44,245 bases of DNA from Escherichia phage SM_W22, in sequence record PP920555.1; one strand, written 5' to 3'. Made by a program: the position numbers and the translations under genes. The notes under the pieces were generated by a model. That model saw nothing but the letters and a program-made list of their open reading frames with translations. It was not told the origin of the DNA and searched no databases. Positions 17,181 through 24,158 of this stretch are shown piece by piece (the first letter of the stretch is position 1; every line of letters begins with the position of its first letter).

Positions 17181-17788
17181 CCACATTTAAATTATACGGC
17201 GTTTTAGGACGTCGATTCGGTAAAGTGCATAAGCTGGACTGCTTCACTCCGGGCGAGGGTATCACCGGCCTGTGCGTGAAGTTACCCGGCTTACAGGACT
17301 TTCTAATGTCGGCCCACCTGGACAATATGATGTTCAAGGTGCGCAAAGGCGACCACACGATGACCGGCTATGATGAGCTGGGCGAGTTCCACGGCAACCG
17401 CGTAGTTACCATCGCGCCGGTTATGACGGGCGCAAAAAGAGGGTTGGGACAATTGCTGGCGGGTGTCGCGATCGTAGTGGCGTCGTTCTATACGGGCGGA
17501 CTTGCTACTGCCGCTTTCGGGGCTTCGGCTGCAACCGCTGCCGCTATCGGGACGGCGACGTTTTCGTTCGGGATGTCGATGGCGCTGGGTGGCGTTATGC
17601 AATTGCTGTCGCCACAACCGAAAGGATTGCAGACAAGGCAGGACGTGGATAACAAAGCGTCGTACGCGTTCGGCGGGCCAGTGAATACAACAGCGCAAGG
17701 CACGGCGCTTGGTGTATTATGGGGCGAGCGTGAGATCGGCGGCGCTATTATTTCAGCCGGAATCGTAACCGAGGACTTGAACGAATGA
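17171..17788 (+). CDS. Tail assembly protein I-like
   Basis: 205 aa with Gly/Ala-rich C-terminal hydrophobic region, overlapping K stop and J start. Confidence 0.6.
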   Translation: MAMTTFKLYGVLGRRFGKVHKLDCFTPGEGITGLCVKLPGLQDFLMSAHLDNMMFKVRKGDHTMTGYDELGEFHGNRVVTIAPVMTGAKRGLGQLLAGVAIVVASFYTGGLATAAFGASAATAAAIGTATFSFGMSMALGGVMQLLSPQPKGLQTRQDVDNKASYAFGGPVNTTAQGTALGVLWGEREIGGAIISAGIVTEDLNE

Positions 17789-20700
17789 CGATTATCTACG
17801 ACGTCACAGGGCATAAAGGCGGCGGCGGCAAACAGCACACCCCACAGGAGACGCCAGATAGCCTGCATTCGCTGGCTAAAATCCGCATCTTGCTTGCGCT
17901 GGGGGAAGGGGAATTCGAAAGTATTACCAGCGCCAGCGAATTGCGGCAGCGTGTTTACCTTGATGGAACGCCGATCCAGAACGCTGACTTGTCCGAAAAC
18001 TTCCCTGGCGCGCGTGTGGAGTTCCGCCCCGGCACACAGCACCAGGATGTGATCCACGGATTTTCAGCGGTGGAAAGTGAGCAATCTGTCGGCGTAAAAC
18101 TGGAAAACGGTACGCCGTGGGTACGCCAGATTAACGATACCAGTCTGGACGCCGTTCGCATTCGCATCGGAATTCCGGCCCTGTACACTAACGAAGATAA
18201 TGGCGACCTGGTTGGCGGACGCATTGACTATAAGATCGTTGTGTATACGGATAACGCCGACCCGCGTGAGTTCAGATTCGCCGCCGTTGGTAAAACAATG
18301 TCGCTGTATGAGCGCGACCACCGCATCGAATTACCGCCGAACGTGAATACCGGCTGGCGCGTGGAGGTGCACCGCATAACGGCAGACTCCACATCGGCGA
18401 AAGTGGTGAACAATATTCAGGTACAATCAATTACTGAGATTATCGACGCCCGCCTGCGCTACCCGCTAACCGCGCTGTTATTCGTGGAGTTCGACGCTAA
18501 AGCGTTCCAGAACATCCCGCGCGTGTCCATTAAGTGCAAAGGCCGCAAAGTGCTGGTTCCGAACAACTACGACCCGATCAACCATACCTATTCGGGCGAC
18601 TGGGACGGGACGTTTAAACGCGCATGGACGGATAACCCTGCGTGGCACTGGTATGACATTTGTATTACTGAGCGCTTCGGCCTCGGTCGGCGTATCAAAC
18701 CGCAAATGCTAAACCGATACGCGCTCTACCAGATTGCGCAGCGCTGCGATCAGTTGGTCAGCGACGGCAACGGTGGCCGAGAAATCCGCTTTAAGAATGA
18801 TATGTACATTCAGTCACAGACGGATGCCTGGACCGTGCTTAAGGATTTAGCCGCCATCTTCGCCGGAATGACCTGGTGGGGCAACCAGATGTTGAATATC
18901 GTCAGTGACCAACCGGTCGCAGCAGTGTCGCACACTATCACCAACGCCTCGGTTATTGATGGGCGCTTCGACTACGCGTCCGGTAGCCAGAAAACTCGGT
19001 ACTCCACGTTCGCAGTAGCATACGGCAACCCGAAGAACCACTATGAAGATGCTATCGCAACGGGGCAACGTGTCGAACTGGTACGCCGCCATAAGATTAA
19101 CCGTCTCGATATTACGGCGATCGGCTGTACGCGTGAATCTGAAGCGCAGCGTCGCGGGCACTGGGCGCTAATTTCCAACCAGCTTGACCAGCAAGTTAGC
19201 TTTAAAGTTGGCATGGAAGGGTTATTCTTTATTCCCGGTAGCGTAGTCGCGATCGCGGATACAAACATTTCTGGCGGTTTTGAGACGCGCGGCGGTCGAC
19301 TGTTGTCGGACCCCGGAACTCGTACCGTGCTGAACACGGACAGCGAAATCACATTCCGCCCTGGCGATAAGTTCCTGGTACGCACCGATAGCGGTAATGT
19401 GGAGACTCGCGAGATCGCCAGCGTCAACGGCAACAAGGTAACGCTAAAAACCGCACTGGACGCCAACCCTATTCCTGACCAGCCGTTTTGCGTTGATGGC
19501 GACGATATCCAGTTGCAGAAATTCCGCATCACCGACCTGGAGTATGACGACTCTACGAGCACTTTCTCGGTGCGCGGGATTGAGTACAACGATAGCAAGT
19601 ATGATGCCGTTGATAATGGCGCGCGCCTTGATCCGGGTATCTTTACGCAAGTGCCTGACGGGGTAATGAAGGGGCCGGAATCCGTGACCATCACCCCGTC
19701 GCAGATTTCATCGCAAGGCCAGCTAATCACCAACGTGGATATTGTGTTCCCGCCGGTGAAGGATGCCGTTGTTTATGAGATCCAGTGGCGACGTACCAGC
19801 TTGCAGAATATGGCGGTCCAGTGGGGGAACGACTGGGTAAACATCCCTCGCACGGCATCGAACGGCGCTCACATCCCCAACGTGTTCTCCGGTAACTACC
19901 AGGCACGCGTCCGCGCAATCAGTATGGGCGAGATTTCATCCCCGTGGGTGTCGTCCGCTATCACGCCGGTGGAAGGTCGTCTCGGCGGTCTTAACGCGCC
20001 TATCATCACCAACGCGATTTCGGGCCTTCACCAAATTTTGTGGAAGTGGAACCACAACAACGCCGCGACGGATATTTCGTACACCGAGCTTGAAGTTCGC
20101 AAGACGGGTGAAACGGAATGGAAATTCCTAACCAACGTCCCATACCCGGGGTCGGAGTATGCGCAAACGTCGCTGGAGTTCGGCATCTATCAGCAGTTGC
20201 GCGCCCGTGTAGCGGATAAAATCGGCAACCTGTCGGACTGGTCGGCCCCGTTTGAAGGGCAGGTGAGTGACAATGTTGACGAGTATATGAAGGGGCTTGA
20301 CGACGCGTTTTTGACTTCAGAGGATGGTAAACGCTTCCAGGAAGCGATCGACACCATGCCGCAAGGCATTTATGAGGCCATGCTCACCGACGCGCAGCAA
20401 TTGTTCAACGCCCGCGCTGAGTATAAAGGGATTTATGCAGAAATCTCTGTCGCGTATAACGTGGCGGCAGATGCCCACCAGGCGGTAGCGCAACTGGAAA
20501 CGTTGATCGGTACTCGCCTTGATGACGCGGAAGCTGCGATCCACACGTTGCAGACCGCGCAGAGCACACAGGAACAAGCGTTCGCCCAGTACCAGCAAAC
20601 TGTTGCCGCTAAGTTCGGGGAACAGGAAGCCGCCATCCAGCAGGTACAAACGGCAACCGCAGACGTGGCGGGAGCGCTGGCGGAATATAAGACCCAGGTC

Positions 20701-21204
20701 GCTACACAGTTCGGTCAGCAGTCCGCCGCTATCGAGCAGAAGATGACGTCCTCGTTTAACCACTCTGGTGGTAGCGCCACGTATAGCCTTAAGGCTGGCG
20801 TGACATATAACGGGACTTATTATGATGCGGGTATGCAGCTTTCCGTTGTGACGTCTGGCAACGCGGTTAAATCGCGTATTGCGTTCAAGGCGGACCAGTT
20901 CTACATCATGCATCCGTCCAATGGGACGCTGTCGTCTGCGTTTATTGTGGACGGTGGCGCGGTGTATATCGACACGGCACGCATCAAGAACGCGTCCATC
21001 AACTTCGCGCAGATAACAGACACGCTGCAATCGAATAACTACGACGGCAGCACGCGCGGCTGGCGCTTAGGGAAAGATGGAACGTTTATCAACCTGGGCA
21101 CCGGTAGCGGCGGCGGGATGAAACAGACGAACACAAGAATCAGCGTGAAGGACGGAAACGGCGTTCTCCGCGTGCAGATTGGTGAGCTTACTGGTAGCTG
21201 GTAG
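17785..21204 (+). CDS. Host specificity protein J-like (central tail fiber / tip attachment)
   Basis: 1139 aa; N-terminus strongly resembles lambda gpJ-type proteins; canonical position. Confidence 0.85.
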   Translation: MTIIYDVTGHKGGGGKQHTPQETPDSLHSLAKIRILLALGEGEFESITSASELRQRVYLDGTPIQNADLSENFPGARVEFRPGTQHQDVIHGFSAVESEQSVGVKLENGTPWVRQINDTSLDAVRIRIGIPALYTNEDNGDLVGGRIDYKIVVYTDNADPREFRFAAVGKTMSLYERDHRIELPPNVNTGWRVEVHRITADSTSAKVVNNIQVQSITEIIDARLRYPLTALLFVEFDAKAFQNIPRVSIKCKGRKVLVPNNYDPINHTYSGDWDGTFKRAWTDNPAWHWYDICITERFGLGRRIKPQMLNRYALYQIAQRCDQLVSDGNGGREIRFKNDMYIQSQTDAWTVLKDLAAIFAGMTWWGNQMLNIVSDQPVAAVSHTITNASVIDGRFDYASGSQKTRYSTFAVAYGNPKNHYEDAIATGQRVELVRRHKINRLDITAIGCTRESEAQRRGHWALISNQLDQQVSFKVGMEGLFFIPGSVVAIADTNISGGFETRGGRLLSDPGTRTVLNTDSEITFRPGDKFLVRTDSGNVETREIASVNGNKVTLKTALDANPIPDQPFCVDGDDIQLQKFRITDLEYDDSTSTFSVRGIEYNDSKYDAVDNGARLDPGIFTQVPDGVMKGPESVTITPSQISSQGQLITNVDIVFPPVKDAVVYEIQWRRTSLQNMAVQWGNDWVNIPRTASNGAHIPNVFSGNYQARVRAISMGEISSPWVSSAITPVEGRLGGLNAPIITNAISGLHQILWKWNHNNAATDISYTELEVRKTGETEWKFLTNVPYPGSEYAQTSLEFGIYQQLRARVADKIGNLSDWSAPFEGQVSDNVDEYMKGLDDAFLTSEDGKRFQEAIDTMPQGIYEAMLTDAQQLFNARAEYKGIYAEISVAYNVAADAHQAVAQLETLIGTRLDDAEAAIHTLQTAQSTQEQAFAQYQQTVAAKFGEQEAAIQQVQTATADVAGALAEYKTQVATQFGQQSAAIEQKMTSSFNHSGGSATYSLKAGVTYNGTYYDAGMQLSVVTSGNAVKSRIAFKADQFYIMHPSNGTLSSAFIVDGGAVYIDTARIKNASINFAQITDTLQSNNYDGSTRGWRLGKDGTFINLGTGSGGGMKQTNTRISVKDGNGVLRVQIGELTGSW

Positions 21205-21240: not shown

Positions 21241-21543
21241 ATGGCATTCGGTATCGCAACGTGGGACGCGCAAGGACGCCCAAACAACTACGGCATTAAA
21301 CCGGTAAGCGTGATCGGAAGGATTCATCTTGCGGAAGGACAAAAATCAGGCGCATGGTCATTCCCTGTACCGGCGGGGATGAAGGTCGGATACGTGGTCG
21401 CACTGGATAAAGGCGCGGTCGGGCCAGGCCGCAGAATAACCGCCAGCGGGAACACTATCACGGTTTCCGCGGCAAGTGCGGTAGGTGGCGGGGTTTACTC
21501 CGCATCTGAATGTGACGTTATTGTTTTTGTGGAGCGAGCATAA
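21241..21543 (+). CDS. Hypothetical protein (tail-associated?)
   Basis: 100 aa ORF after J terminator; no motif recognised. Confidence 0.45.
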   Translation: MAFGIATWDAQGRPNNYGIKPVSVIGRIHLAEGQKSGAWSFPVPAGMKVGYVVALDKGAVGPGRRITASGNTITVSAASAVGGGVYSASECDVIVFVERA

Positions 21544-22217
21544 TGGCTAATTACGGCGCGTTGATTGACTTACCAAACGGCAACCCGTTTATCACACCAG
21601 AATCGACGCCGTTTTGTCTATTCCGCCGTGTGGTTGTTGGGTCTTCGGCTAACGGCACTGCGCAGTCGGCGGCTGCCGATATTAATTTGGGTGGTGACTA
21701 CCCTGCAATAGCGTTTGTGAAAACTACGCACACCGCCCAGCCGACCGTCGTAGGGTCTTCTCGCGTTGGTAATGTGGTGAAGGTGAGCGCCAGCAATCCA
21801 TTCGGGAAAGGCTTCACGATGACGGCTTACATCTTTGCCATATTCCCACAGACCCTTCCGCGGTGGGGCTTCGCTATTTGGGATAAGACGGGGAAGCTAG
21901 TGCTTACTAATGAGAGTCGCGTACTAAGCGATTTAGTTACCGTCGGATCGCCAGGCGCTAACGGGGGGATTAACATTGACCAGACGCTAAATGGCAGCTA
22001 CGCCGTCGCTCCGGGCATATTGGGGTCTACGCTGATCCGGTTTTTTGTGCAGGGCCAGCCGCAAGTAATATCGGTAACGGCGTACACGGGGGCCAGATTT
22101 GATGGGTCGCGAACGCGTATATCGGCAGCGTCGGCGGGGAACGCCACGGGGGATGTGGTGGGGTATACTAACAACGGCAACGCGATTATGGCGATTAACA
22201 CGGCCAATTATGATTGA
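21543..22217 (+). CDS. Hypothetical protein (tail-associated?)
   Basis: 224 aa ORF, ATGA-coupled to upstream ORF; Gly/Ser/Thr/Asn-rich like fibre accessory proteins. Confidence 0.45.
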   Translation: MANYGALIDLPNGNPFITPESTPFCLFRRVVVGSSANGTAQSAAADINLGGDYPAIAFVKTTHTAQPTVVGSSRVGNVVKVSASNPFGKGFTMTAYIFAIFPQTLPRWGFAIWDKTGKLVLTNESRVLSDLVTVGSPGANGGINIDQTLNGSYAVAPGILGSTLIRFFVQGQPQVISVTAYTGARFDGSRTRISAASAGNATGDVVGYTNNGNAIMAINTANYD

Positions 22218-22239
22218 AGAAAATCCCCTTTCGGGGATT
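22216..22239 (-). terminator. Hairpin terminator between convergent genes (T-run on minus strand)
   Basis: AATCCCC-tttc-GGGGATT hairpin with A-run on plus side (T-run for minus transcript). Confidence 0.6.
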
Positions 22240-22456
22240 ATTCGCAGGTGGTGTTTTTGAAATGGTCTACCGACACGTACTGGAAGCTAAACGGATAACC
22301 CGCCCTTAGCATTTTATGCCCGGAGAAGTCCGCAACACCATACACAGGGACCACATAATCCATGCCGCTATTCTGGTATGTGGCGTCGCAGACTTTAGCG
22401 GGCATGTCGGCACAACCTGACAAAAGAACCGCACAAATCATAATTAAAGTTTTCAT
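22238..22456 (-). CDS. Small lipoprotein, candidate superinfection-exclusion / receptor-blocking protein (T5 Llp / Cor-like by architecture)
   Basis: Signal peptide MKTLIMICAVLLSGC with lipobox; about 57 aa mature protein with 2 further Cys; antisense and divergent from tail fiber gene. Confidence 0.6.
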   Translation of the reverse strand: MKTLIMICAVLLSGCADMPAKVCDATYQNSGMDYVVPVYGVADFSGHKMLRAGYPFSFQYVSVDHFKNTTCE

Positions 22457-22512
22457 GGTATCATCCTCTATATATTTGGTTGAGTTTTAGTATTACACCG
22501 CTCAACCAGGAT

Positions 22513-22522
22513 TGCAACCAAT
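22513..22522. promoter_or_regulatory. TGCAACCAAT motif upstream of tail fiber gene
   Basis: Motif in 82 bp divergent intergenic region between lipoprotein and fiber genes. Confidence 0.35.
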
Positions 22523-22538
22523 TTATGAGGATTTAGCT

Positions 22539-24128
22539 ATGGCAGCGGGTACGCTATCCGTAACGAACAATAGCACGGCGGTAGTAGGAGTCGGCACAAC
22601 GTTTACCGCGTTTAAAGCTGGCGACTTCTTAACGCTGGTGGTAGGACAAGTGCCTTACACAGTGGCGATCGCATCAATCGAAAGTAACACGGCGCTTACG
22701 CTGGTGTTGCCGTTCGACGGCCCAACGGCAACCGGCCTTGCTTGGGATGGTGTTAAGCGCGATACCATGTCGCTGGCAACGATGGGCGTTACCGTACAGG
22801 CCCAAAAAGCATTGCGCTTGATGATTGCAGATGAAAACAACTGGCGTGCAATCTTCGGCGATGCTGAAGAAATCACAGTCACGCTCCCGAACGGGCAAGT
22901 TATGCAGGGTATGTCGTGGGGCTACCTGTCGTCTTTGCTGAAGGAAGTAGACCCCGTTGAGATGCGCAACCTGCAACAACAAGCCGCCGCATCGGAAGCA
23001 GCCGCGCAAGGATTTCGCAATGAGGCCGAACAATTCGCTAATAGTGTTAACCCGGAAAACCTACTTGCGAAGGCCAACAACTTAAGTGATGTTGCGGATG
23101 TGGCTGTGGCGCGCGAAAACATTGGTGTAGACCGCCTAACGCAAAACATAACCAGCGGCGAAACACAAATCAGGACTGCGGCGAAGAATAAATGGATCTT
23201 CGTTAAGGAAAATGGCGACTGGGGTGGGTGGGATAATGCCAACAATAAAGCTATGCCGCTGCCGATTGCATTCGGTGGTACGGGGCGCGGCGATAACGTC
23301 GCCGAGTTCCGCCAATTCAAATCAAACGGCGACACCCAAGATGGGTTAATCATTACGCAGAACGGGTCTGGATTTGGTGGTGTATGCTGGGGGGATTCCG
23401 CCGATAAAGTACGCTGGCGCATGGGGATTAACGACGCCGCGGGTAATTTTAAGTTGCACTCATATGACGCGTCGGGCGCGTACCGCGATACCTTTATGGA
23501 GATCTCTGGATCGGGGATAAGCGGCATGGTGTGTCATCGAGATATCACGGTCCGCCCAACAGAGACAGCTCCAGTGTTGTCTTTCGTCCTAAACAACGGA
23601 AAAGCTACCGTCCCGGCTGGTAACGTCCGCACGATGTGGGATACGGTTAACATCAATAGTAATCTAATCTATAAATATTTTGAGAAGGGCGACGGCACGG
23701 GCTTTACGATCAATTGGCCTTCATCTGGTGGTGTTCTTGCCTTGCAAGGCACATCGGGGCGGGACTTTAAGAAAGATATTGTCGATGCAGACGTTACAGA
23801 AGCGGTTGCACGCATTGAACAAATGCGCATGGTGCGCTACGTGTATAAGGACGATGTGCAGGAGCGCGTCCGCTTCGGCATCATTGCCGAGGAAGCAGAA
23901 GAGATCGCGCCTCAATACATCAAACACCGTGAGGAGACGTACGATGTGGAGGTGGACCCCGAGACTAACTCCATCGTCGGGGGTAAGACGCGCGACCGTC
24001 CGTCGGTAGACGTTAACCCTATCGTGATGGACTTGATGGGGTGCGCACAATATGCGATCGCTGAGTGTAAACGCCTGGCGGCGGAAGTGGAGGATTTGAA
24101 AGCCGAGATCGCGGCGCTGAAGAAATAA
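22539..24128 (+). CDS. Tail fiber protein with C-terminal intramolecular chaperone (peptidase S74-like) domain
   Basis: Track ORF trimmed to Met with GAGGA RBS; fibre-like N-terminus; C-terminal GRDFKKDI...YVYKDD segment and terminal coiled coil typical of autocleaving chaperone domains. Confidence 0.65.
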   Translation: MAAGTLSVTNNSTAVVGVGTTFTAFKAGDFLTLVVGQVPYTVAIASIESNTALTLVLPFDGPTATGLAWDGVKRDTMSLATMGVTVQAQKALRLMIADENNWRAIFGDAEEITVTLPNGQVMQGMSWGYLSSLLKEVDPVEMRNLQQQAAASEAAAQGFRNEAEQFANSVNPENLLAKANNLSDVADVAVARENIGVDRLTQNITSGETQIRTAAKNKWIFVKENGDWGGWDNANNKAMPLPIAFGGTGRGDNVAEFRQFKSNGDTQDGLIITQNGSGFGGVCWGDSADKVRWRMGINDAAGNFKLHSYDASGAYRDTFMEISGSGISGMVCHRDITVRPTETAPVLSFVLNNGKATVPAGNVRTMWDTVNINSNLIYKYFEKGDGTGFTINWPSSGGVLALQGTSGRDFKKDIVDADVTEAVARIEQMRMVRYVYKDDVQERVRFGIIAEEAEEIAPQYIKHREETYDVEVDPETNSIVGGKTRDRPSVDVNPIVMDLMGCAQYAIAECKRLAAEVEDLKAEIAALKK

Positions 24129-24134
24129 ATAGAA

Positions 24135-24158
24135 GGGGCCATGCGGCCCCTTTTTTAG
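24135..24158. terminator. Bidirectional intrinsic terminator between late and replication modules
   Basis: GGGGCC-atgc-GGCCCC hairpin followed by T6; convergent gene ends on both sides. Confidence 0.8.

What the first reader, a model, noticed from the sequence alone, without database searches (positions are those of the whole stretch)
22238..22456. Antisense lipoprotein gene divergent from tail fiber gene: candidate receptor-masking superinfection exclusion factor
A 72-aa protein with a classical lipoprotein signal (lipobox LLSGC) is on the minus strand between tail genes, sharing an 82 bp motif-bearing divergent region with the side tail fiber gene. Phage T5 Llp and phi80/T1 Cor lipoproteins sit next to receptor-binding protein genes and block the receptor. 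The short Cys-containing mature peptide is compatible with that.
Basis: partly seen in the sequence, partly recalled or inferred. Interest (0 to 1): 0.6.

Follow-up and report, generated by a model that had tools for sequence, protein, structure and literature searches.

The report
Cor receptor-blocking lipoprotein gene, already known
The small antisense gene is real and encodes Cor, a known phage lipoprotein that shuts down the FhuA receptor so an infected E. coli cell cannot be attacked again; identical copies are already annotated in sequenced relatives, so it is ordinary.

The parts
22238..22456 (-). cor gene: 72-aa precursor of the Cor superinfection-exclusion lipoprotein (stop codon included)
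   Evidence: ORF. PHROG 1119 E=3.1e-26, full length. NCBIfam NF047972 at 56.3 bits against a cutoff of 31. 100% identical to JLBYU37 Cor, 47.9% to T1 Cor, 44.4% to phi80 Cor. dN/dS 0.04-0.20.
22415..22456 (-). signal peptide, residues 1-14 (MKTLIMICAVLLSG); the lipobox L-L-S-G-C spans 22412-22426
   Evidence: PS51257 pattern match, Lys2, hydrophobic core. G14 and C15 are nearly invariant in the family alignment.
22241..22414 (-). mature 58-aa lipoprotein: lipidated Cys15, Ala at +2 (outer-membrane sorting), invariant Cys23 and Cys71, AGYPF motif
22464..22469 (-). Shine-Dalgarno sequence AGAGGA, 7 nt upstream of the cor ATG
   Evidence: Read from the sequence. Purine-rich block conserved in relatives.
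22489..22517 (-). putative sigma-70 promoter of cor: -35 TTGCAA (22517-22512), 17-nt spacer ending in TG (22497-22496), -10 AATACT (22494-22489)
   Evidence: Coordinates. The -35 hexamer, the TG and ATACT of the -10 are invariant in 7 FhuA-type Dhillonviruses and in HK578; only the first -10 base varies (G in SECphi4), and the spacer varies. It scores 8 of 12, below the tool's 9-of-12 threshold, so it was not listed. Inferred, not mapped.
22214..22239 (-). intrinsic terminator of cor: hairpin AATCCCC-GAAA-GGGGATT followed by TTTTCTTC. It overlaps the stop codons of cor and of orfB.
   Evidence: Sequence. Relatives have GCCCC...GGGGC at the same place, a compensatory change on both stem sides.
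21241..22217 (+). orfA (100 aa, 21241-21543) and orfB (224 aa, 21543-22217): the two genes that always accompany cor downstream of J. The literature proposes them as the FhuA receptor-binding module.
   Evidence: PHROG 557 and 425. Same sizes and order in T1 and phi80. 55-70% identical to the T1 and phi80 counterparts, 99-100% to JLBYU37. PMC8594841 and PMC13164509.
17785..21204 (+). J-like central tail tip protein (1139 aa)
   Evidence: ORF. 98.9% identical to the J protein of FhuA-dependent JLBYU37.
22539..24128 (+). lateral tail fibre gene (529 aa) with a C-terminal S74 intramolecular chaperone domain. It is the divergent neighbour, not the functional partner.
   Evidence: PHROG 1980 E=6e-132 and Pfam PF13884. 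The central part differs from most relatives (65% coverage; 61% identity).

Best explanation
The ORF is the cor gene of a virulent E. coli siphophage of the genus Dhillonvirus. Shown or directly readable: the precursor carries a lipoprotein signal peptide, and the gene has its own promoter-like element, ribosome-binding site and terminator. Inferred from established pathways: Lgt, LspA and Lnt would lipidate Cys15 and cleave before it. [quoted passage not shown] Cys23 and Cys71 would form a disulphide tying the two ends together, as in T5 Llp. Inferred by homology to T1 and phi80 Cor and by structural similarity to Llp: the protein binds the periplasmic face of the ferrichrome transporter FhuA. 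That binding would lock FhuA in a state whose extracellular loops no longer accept phage tail tips. FhuA is the terminal receptor recognised by this phage's own J-orfA-orfB module. The infected cell and the debris left after lysis would then stop adsorbing this phage's progeny and other FhuA-dependent phages such as T1, T5 and phi80. The gene points the same way as the early DNA-metabolism genes and opposite to the tail genes. It is transcribed on its own from a host-type promoter in the 82-bp gap, which fits expression from early in infection.
Against: Nothing here is a functional test of this protein, and I found no paper testing a Dhillonvirus Cor. No experimental Cor:FhuA structure exists. 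The molecular mechanism of Cor is described as not yet elucidated, so periplasmic allosteric closure is extrapolated from Llp at about 22% identity. The Foldseek E-values against PDB are not significant on their own (0.067), and part of the profile hit to Llp is signal peptide. [quoted passage not shown] The promoter and the timing of expression are inferred from sequence conservation only.
Confidence: 0.9

Rival explanations
1. Literal receptor masking: Cor reaches the cell surface and sterically covers the extracellular phage-binding site of FhuA.
For: The exclusion phenotype would look the same. An early in-vitro study placed Llp outside the cell (cited in PMC9586334). An initial AF3 run docked a T1-like Cor on the outer side of FhuA (PMC13164509).
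Against: Lol-sorted lipoproteins with a non-Asp +2 residue normally face the periplasm (established E. coli lipoprotein sorting). The Llp crystal structure shows binding to the periplasmic face with allosteric loop closure. This protein's model matches the FhuA-bound Llp conformation best. The AF3 model with the FhuA N-terminal region removed put Cor on the periplasmic side with ipTM 0.84.
Confidence: 0.07
2. Cor excludes phages indirectly, through other outer-membrane proteins such as OmpA or porins, or by blocking DNA entry after adsorption, rather than by a 1:1 inactivating complex with FhuA.
For: A published study reports Cor interacting with outer-membrane proteins (title cited as reference 13 in PMC13164509). 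The Cor mechanism is described as unresolved.
Against: Cor was reported to inactivate FhuA functions generally (Uc-Mass et al. 2004, as cited). The cassette co-occurs strictly with FhuA use. The fold matches an established direct FhuA binder.
Confidence: 0.12
3. The lipoprotein blocks a different receptor (BtuB, LptD or another TonB-dependent transporter) rather than FhuA.
For: Cor-like or Llp-like lipoproteins occur in BtuB-using phages. Dhillonviruses such as HK578 carry an Rtp45-type lipoprotein in the same slot, and Rtp45 was shown to block LptD (PMC12685063).
Against: The whole recognition module is 99-100% identical to that of phages proven FhuA-dependent. The mature domain is unrelated to the HK578 Rtp45-like lipoprotein: only the signal peptide aligns, and 9rps_D scores E=0.75.
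Confidence: 0.02
4. It is some other small phage lipoprotein, such as an o-spanin for lysis or a Bor-like host-fitness factor, or it is a non-functional chance ORF.
For: Small outer-membrane lipoproteins in phage genomes are often o-spanins. Short ORFs are abundant: 76 of at least 30 aa in 7 kb.
Against: In the collinear relative Envy, the spanin genes and the holin-endolysin genes lie elsewhere. The mature peptide has only 3 prolines in 58 residues. The protein matches the curated Cor model, not another family. dN/dS is 0.04-0.20.
Confidence: 0.01

Closest known systems
Cor of phages T1, phi80, N15, HK022 and mEp167 (NCBIfam NF047972; PHROG 1119)
   Same: Homologous over the full length, 44-48% identity. 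Same lipobox, same two invariant cysteines, same RAGYPF block. Same position at the end of the J / 100-aa / 224-aa cassette. Same receptor, FhuA.
   Different: In phi80, a temperate phage, cor is on the same strand as J and acts from the prophage. Here, as in virulent T1, it is inverted relative to J. Here it also lies head-to-head with the lateral tail fibre gene. The mature domain is 3-5 residues shorter.
Cor of sequenced Dhillonviruses (JLBYU37, Opt212, Envy, JLBYU60, bob and others)
   Same: 100% identical protein in JLBYU37 and Opt212, and 79-96% in about 75 other records. Identical locus layout. Already annotated as a super-infection exclusion protein. These hosts' phages are experimentally FhuA-dependent.
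   Different: Nothing of substance at this locus. The adjacent tail fibre of the window is a shorter, different allele (529 aa against 805 aa).
T5 Llp, the lytic conversion lipoprotein (PDB 8A60 chain B, 7QJF)
   Different: Only about 22% identity, with a borderline sequence-profile match (E=0.0048). A different phage family and a different receptor-binding protein (pb5). The periplasmic allosteric mechanism is proven for Llp only.
Rtp45-type lipoprotein of phage Rtp and Dhillonvirus HK578 (LptD blocker, PDB 9RPS chain D)
   Same: Occupies the same genomic slot between J and the lateral fibre, on the same strand. It sits behind the same conserved promoter, 5' leader and first five codons, MKTLI.
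   Different: The mature domain is unrelated. It targets LptDE and displaces loops sterically rather than allosterically (PMC12685063). It is co-transcribed with its receptor-binding protein gene.

Membership tests
Cor superinfection-exclusion lipoprotein family | Sequence match to the curated family model above its cutoff | tested here: met
   NF047972.1 equivalog, 56.3 bits against a cutoff of 31, residues 2-72 on profile positions 2-77 of 78. PHROG 1119 E=3.1e-26. Pfam has no model that hits.
Cor superinfection-exclusion lipoprotein family | N-terminal lipoprotein signal peptide with a lipobox cysteine | tested here: met
   PS51257 pattern IMICAVLLSGC, Cys15, Lys2. G14 and C15 are conserved in all full-length homologues. 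SignalP and LipoP themselves were not available.
Cor superinfection-exclusion lipoprotein family | Conserved mature-domain signature: a cysteine near each end and the (R/K)AGYPF block | tested here: met
   C23, G53, F66 and C71 are invariant; A52, Y54 and F56 are at least 90% conserved in 19 sequences including T1 and phi80.
Cor superinfection-exclusion lipoprotein family | Gene lies at the end of the J / ~100-aa / ~224-aa cassette | tested here: met
   Same order and sizes in T1, phi80 and Dhillonviruses.
Cor superinfection-exclusion lipoprotein family | The phage uses FhuA as its terminal receptor | not testable with these tools
   By proxy only: J, orfA, orfB and Cor are 98.9-100% identical to JLBYU37, which was shown FhuA-dependent by knockout and complementation.
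Cor superinfection-exclusion lipoprotein family | Expression excludes FhuA-dependent phages and inactivates FhuA functions | not testable with these tools
   Needs plating and adsorption assays. No published test of a Dhillonvirus Cor was found.
Llp-like receptor-blocking lipoprotein fold (T5 Llp) | Same three-dimensional fold as Llp | tested here: met
Llp-like receptor-blocking lipoprotein fold (T5 Llp) | Intramolecular disulphide tying the N- and C-terminal regions together | tested here: inconclusive
   The cysteines are present and invariant at equivalent positions: mature Cys9 and Cys57 against Llp Cys11 and Cys58.
Llp-like receptor-blocking lipoprotein fold (T5 Llp) | Detectable sequence homology to Llp | tested here: inconclusive
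   The Cor profile's best PDB sequence hit is Llp, but at E=0.0048 and partly through the signal peptide.
Llp-like receptor-blocking lipoprotein fold (T5 Llp) | [quoted passage not shown] | not testable with these tools
   No complex prediction or experiment was available here. Literature AF3 models of a T1-like Cor support it.
o-spanin (Rz1-like outer-membrane lipoprotein of the lysis cassette) | Located in or next to the i-spanin gene in the lysis region; proline-rich mature peptide | tested here: not met
   In collinear Envy, the spanin genes and the holin-endolysin genes lie far from cor. There are 3 prolines in 58 residues and no spanin PHROG hit.
Rtp45-type LptD-blocking lipoprotein | Mature-domain homology to Rtp45 or HK578 gp24 | tested here: not met
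   BLASTP aligns only the signal peptide. The profile hit to 9rps_D is E=0.75 over residues 2-25.

The most novel reading that the evidence does not exclude
The 82-bp gap plus the first five codons (MKTLI) may be a fixed 'socket' shared by unrelated exclusion lipoproteins: Cor for FhuA here, an Rtp45-like protein for LptD in HK578. It would serve as the recombination junction for swapping whole receptor modules. It could also form a timing switch. The conserved leftward cor promoter (22489-22517) overlaps head-to-head with a strong rightward promoter-like site, CTGACA-16-CATAAT at 22417-22444, hidden in the signal-peptide codons and pointing into the tail fibre gene. Early cor transcription and late fibre transcription could then interfere with each other.
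Probability: 0.12. Interest if true: 0.3.

Novelty: already known. Interest (0 to 1): 0.07.

Why it matters
Cor-type lipoproteins determine whether FhuA-dependent phages can be combined in cocktails, and they explain why lysates are not inactivated by their own cell debris. Recognising the cassette also predicts the receptor (FhuA) from sequence alone. All of this is already in the literature for this genus and its relatives, so the window adds one more copy rather than new biology. The only untested point is that no Dhillonvirus Cor appears to have been assayed directly.

Tried and rejected
- **Pfam:** no hit for the ORF even at E of 1 or less. The family is covered only by NCBIfam and PHROGs.
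- **Homologue searches:** the word-indexed search returned only 6 close relatives. The exhaustive representative search returned 13. Two of those (P0009 at 968 aa and P0013 at 2404 aa) are long repetitive proteins with multi-stretch low-grade matches, and I discarded them as spurious.
- **Inverted repeat:** GGTTGAG/CTCAACC (22501-22507 and 22478-22484) was examined as a possible operator or hairpin. Its left arm varies in 5 of 6 relatives without compensation, so it is not supported as a conserved element.
- **Fibre promoter:** the consensus scan found no sigma-70-like promoter for the fibre gene within the 82 bp. The only rightward site lies inside cor, and the base that differs among relatives is a synonymous Ser codon position, so coding constraint explains its conservation equally well.
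- **Other identities:** o-spanin, Bor- or Lom-like factor, Rtp45-type lipoprotein and chance ORF were considered and rejected.
- **orfA and orfB:** tested for homology to each other and found not significant.

Full report
**Observation**

Window 22238-22456 on the minus strand runs from an ATG to a TAA stop and encodes 72 aa: MKTLIMICAVLLSGCADMPAKVCDATYQNSGMDYVVPVYGVADFSGHKMLRAGYPFSFQYVSVDHFKNTTCE.

The N-terminus satisfies the PROSITE lipoprotein rule PS51257 (IMICAVLLSGC, residues 5-15). Lys2 is present, the hydrophobic core is strong, and the lipobox cysteine is at position 15. Cleavage would leave a 58-aa mature peptide with Ala at +2 and two further cysteines, C23 and C71.

The distance to the ATG of the next plus-strand gene at 22539 is exactly 82 bp. 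That gene is a 529-aa tail fibre with a C-terminal S74 chaperone domain.

**It is a real gene**

A 72-codon ORF alone means little, because there are 76 ORFs of at least 30 aa in the surrounding 7 kb. This one has independent support:

- A Shine-Dalgarno AGAGGA lies 7 nt before the ATG.
- A hairpin AATCCCC-GAAA-GGGGATT followed by TTTTCTTC sits immediately after the stop. In relatives the outer stem pair changes on both sides, GCCCC...GGGGC, so pairing is preserved.
- Pairwise dN/dS against six other Dhillonvirus copies is 0.04-0.20, at dS up to 0.86.

**Identity**

The protein matches PHROG 1119 'Cor superinfection exclusion protein' over its full length, E=3.1e-26. It also matches the NCBIfam equivalog NF047972 'phage exclusion lipoprotein Cor' at 56.3 bits against a curated cutoff of 31. 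Pfam has nothing.

tblastn against 50,697 phage records finds 242 records with a full-length match:

| Group | Identity to the window protein |
|---|---|
| About 76 Dhillonvirus-type copies | 79-100% |
| T1-like phages | 44-52% |
| Classical lambdoid Cor (phi80, HK140, mEp213, mEp234, mEp235, mEpX1, mEp390) | 38-42% |

Direct pairwise alignment gives 100% identity to the annotated 'putative super-infection exclusion protein' of phage JLBYU37. It gives 94% to Envy Cor, 47.9% to T1 Cor and 44.4% to phi80 Cor.

In a 19-sequence alignment, C23, G53, F66 and C71 are invariant. G14, C15, G31, V36, A52, Y54 and F56 are at least 90% conserved.

**The window and the locus**

The region is 93-97% identical at the DNA level to E. 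coli siphophages of the genus Dhillonvirus, including EE09, SM_A8, Opt212, JLBYU37 and Envy.

The local order is:

- J-like tail tip protein, 17785-21204 (+)
- orfA, 100 aa, 21241-21543 (+)
- orfB, 224 aa, 21543-22217 (+)
- cor, 22238-22456 (-)
- lateral tail fibre, 22539-24128 (+)
- a block of minus-strand DNA-metabolism genes, after a bidirectional terminator at 24131-24154

The module J / ~100 aa / ~224 aa / cor recurs with the same gene sizes in T1, where cor is also inverted. It recurs in phi80, where cor is co-directional. orfA and orfB are 54-70% identical to their counterparts in those phages.

The gene therefore belongs to the receptor-recognition cassette on its 3' side. The lateral fibre gene on its 5' side is only a neighbour. 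In small siphophages that fibre is thought to bind surface glycans (PMC8594841).

**Receptor**

J is 98.9%, orfA 100%, orfB 99.1% and Cor 100% identical to JLBYU37. That phage cannot infect a fhuA knockout and is rescued by a fhuA plasmid. JLBYU60, Teewinot, bob and Envy are FhuA-dependent as well (PMC10373560). FhuA is therefore the terminal receptor of the window's phage. This is inference by near-identity.

**Structure**

An AlphaFold2 model built on 17 homologues is confident in the mature domain, with block pLDDT of 95-97 for residues 21-70.

- Foldseek ranks 8a60_B second, but with a non-significant E-value among Tudor and SH3-like barrels.
- In BFVD the hits after the Dhillonvirus Cor itself are T5-like 'receptor-blocking protein' and lipoprotein entries.
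- The Cor sequence profile's best PDB hit is again Llp, E=0.0048.
- The invariant cysteines, mature Cys9 and Cys57, correspond to the Llp Cys11-Cys58 disulphide that constrains the termini.

**Mechanism**

Steps read from the sequence are the lipobox, Ala at +2 and the cysteine pair.

Steps inferred by homology are these. T1 and phi80 Cor inactivate FhuA functions and exclude FhuA-dependent phages (as cited). [quoted passage not shown]

I therefore think this Cor most likely locks FhuA from the periplasmic side. That would protect the infected cell from superinfection and protect progeny from being wasted on debris. 'Receptor masking' in the literal, surface sense is the less likely reading. 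The Cor mechanism itself has not been solved structurally.

**Expression signals**

In cor-sense orientation the 82-bp gap contains TTGCAA (22517-22512), a 17-nt spacer ending in TG, and AATACT (22494-22489). The -35 hexamer, the TG and ATACT of the -10 are invariant in seven FhuA-type Dhillonviruses. Only the first -10 base varies (G in SECphi4), and spacer bases vary. At 8 of 12 matches the element falls just below the consensus scanner's threshold, so it was not listed.

The early-gene block is separated from cor by a bidirectional terminator. cor must therefore be transcribed on its own, in the same direction as the early genes. This fits early expression but does not prove it.

The visible inverted repeat GGTTGAG/CTCAACC is not conserved with compensation.

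**Context from the type species**

HK578 has a different cassette in the same slot: an Rtp44-like protein and an Rtp45-like lipoprotein, both on the minus strand. Rtp45 itself has been shown to block LptD (PMC12685063).

The intergenic promoter, the leader and the first five codons (MKTLI) are nevertheless conserved with the window. The mature lipoproteins are unrelated. This is the modular receptor-locus exchange already described for small siphophages (PMC8594841; bioRxiv 10.64898/2026.04.02.716166).

**Comparison with what is known, and novelty**

Every element of the finding is already documented:

- The gene is annotated as cor or as a super-infection exclusion protein in most close relatives.
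- A 2026 paper reports the extended cor cassette in Drexlerviridae and Dhillonvirus phages that use FhuA, and an Llp-like AF3 model of a T1-like Cor (PMC13164509).
- A 2026 preprint states that Cor and Llp belong to one family.

What remains untested, as far as the searched library shows, is a direct exclusion assay for a Dhillonvirus Cor.

**Verdict**

Novelty is 'already known' and interest is low.

Noticed in passing
window 22417-22444 (+), inside the cor signal-peptide codons: The strongest sigma-70-like match in the 3.9-kb scan (CTGACA-16-CATAAT, 10 of 12) lies antisense within cor and points into the tail fibre gene. Its transcript would overlap the 5' end of the cor transcript head-to-head. 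The -10 is invariant in relatives, but it coincides with the Ile-Met codons, and the variable -35 base is a synonymous Ser position. Coding constraint could therefore explain the conservation.
   Followed up: partly
window 22457-22538 and cor codons 1-5; L011 (HK578) 21534-21652: The promoter, the leader and the first five codons (MKTLI) are shared between the Cor gene here and the unrelated Rtp45-like lipoprotein gene of HK578. The junction of the swapped receptor cassette therefore lies inside the signal-peptide coding sequence.
   Followed up: partly
window 21241-22217 (+), orfA and orfB: [quoted passage not shown] Neither has a signal peptide or a hydrophobic segment (maximum 19-residue Kyte-Doolittle score about 1.2), and neither hits Pfam or NCBIfam. 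Recent literature treats them as the likely FhuA-binding proteins, so the labels look like misnomers (PMC8594841; bioRxiv 10.64898/2026.04.02.716166).
   Followed up: partly
window 22222-22239, compared with relatives in alignment A1: The terminator hairpin between orfB and cor has its 4-nt loop as GAAA in some phages and as its reverse complement TTTC in others. This looks as if the palindromic hairpin has been flipped. The window also carries a compensatory T-A outer pair instead of G-C.
   Followed up: no
window 22539-24128 (+): The lateral tail fibre is a short allele: 529 aa against 805 aa in JLBYU37 and Envy. Only the N-terminal and C-terminal (S74 chaperone) parts are conserved, and only EE09 and SM_A8 share the whole gene. 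This fits exchange of the glycan-binding middle part.
   Followed up: no
window 24131-24154: A GC-rich hairpin with T-runs on both strands sits between the end of the tail fibre gene and the end of the minus-strand early-gene block. It is a probable bidirectional terminator isolating cor and the fibre gene from the early operon.
   Followed up: no
proteins P0009 (968 aa) and P0013 (2404 aa) from the representative search: Two long, highly repetitive bacterial surface-type proteins scored E of 1e-8 to 1e-12 against the 72-aa query, through 6-8 short stretches each. They look like repeat-driven false positives, not Cor relatives.
   Followed up: partly
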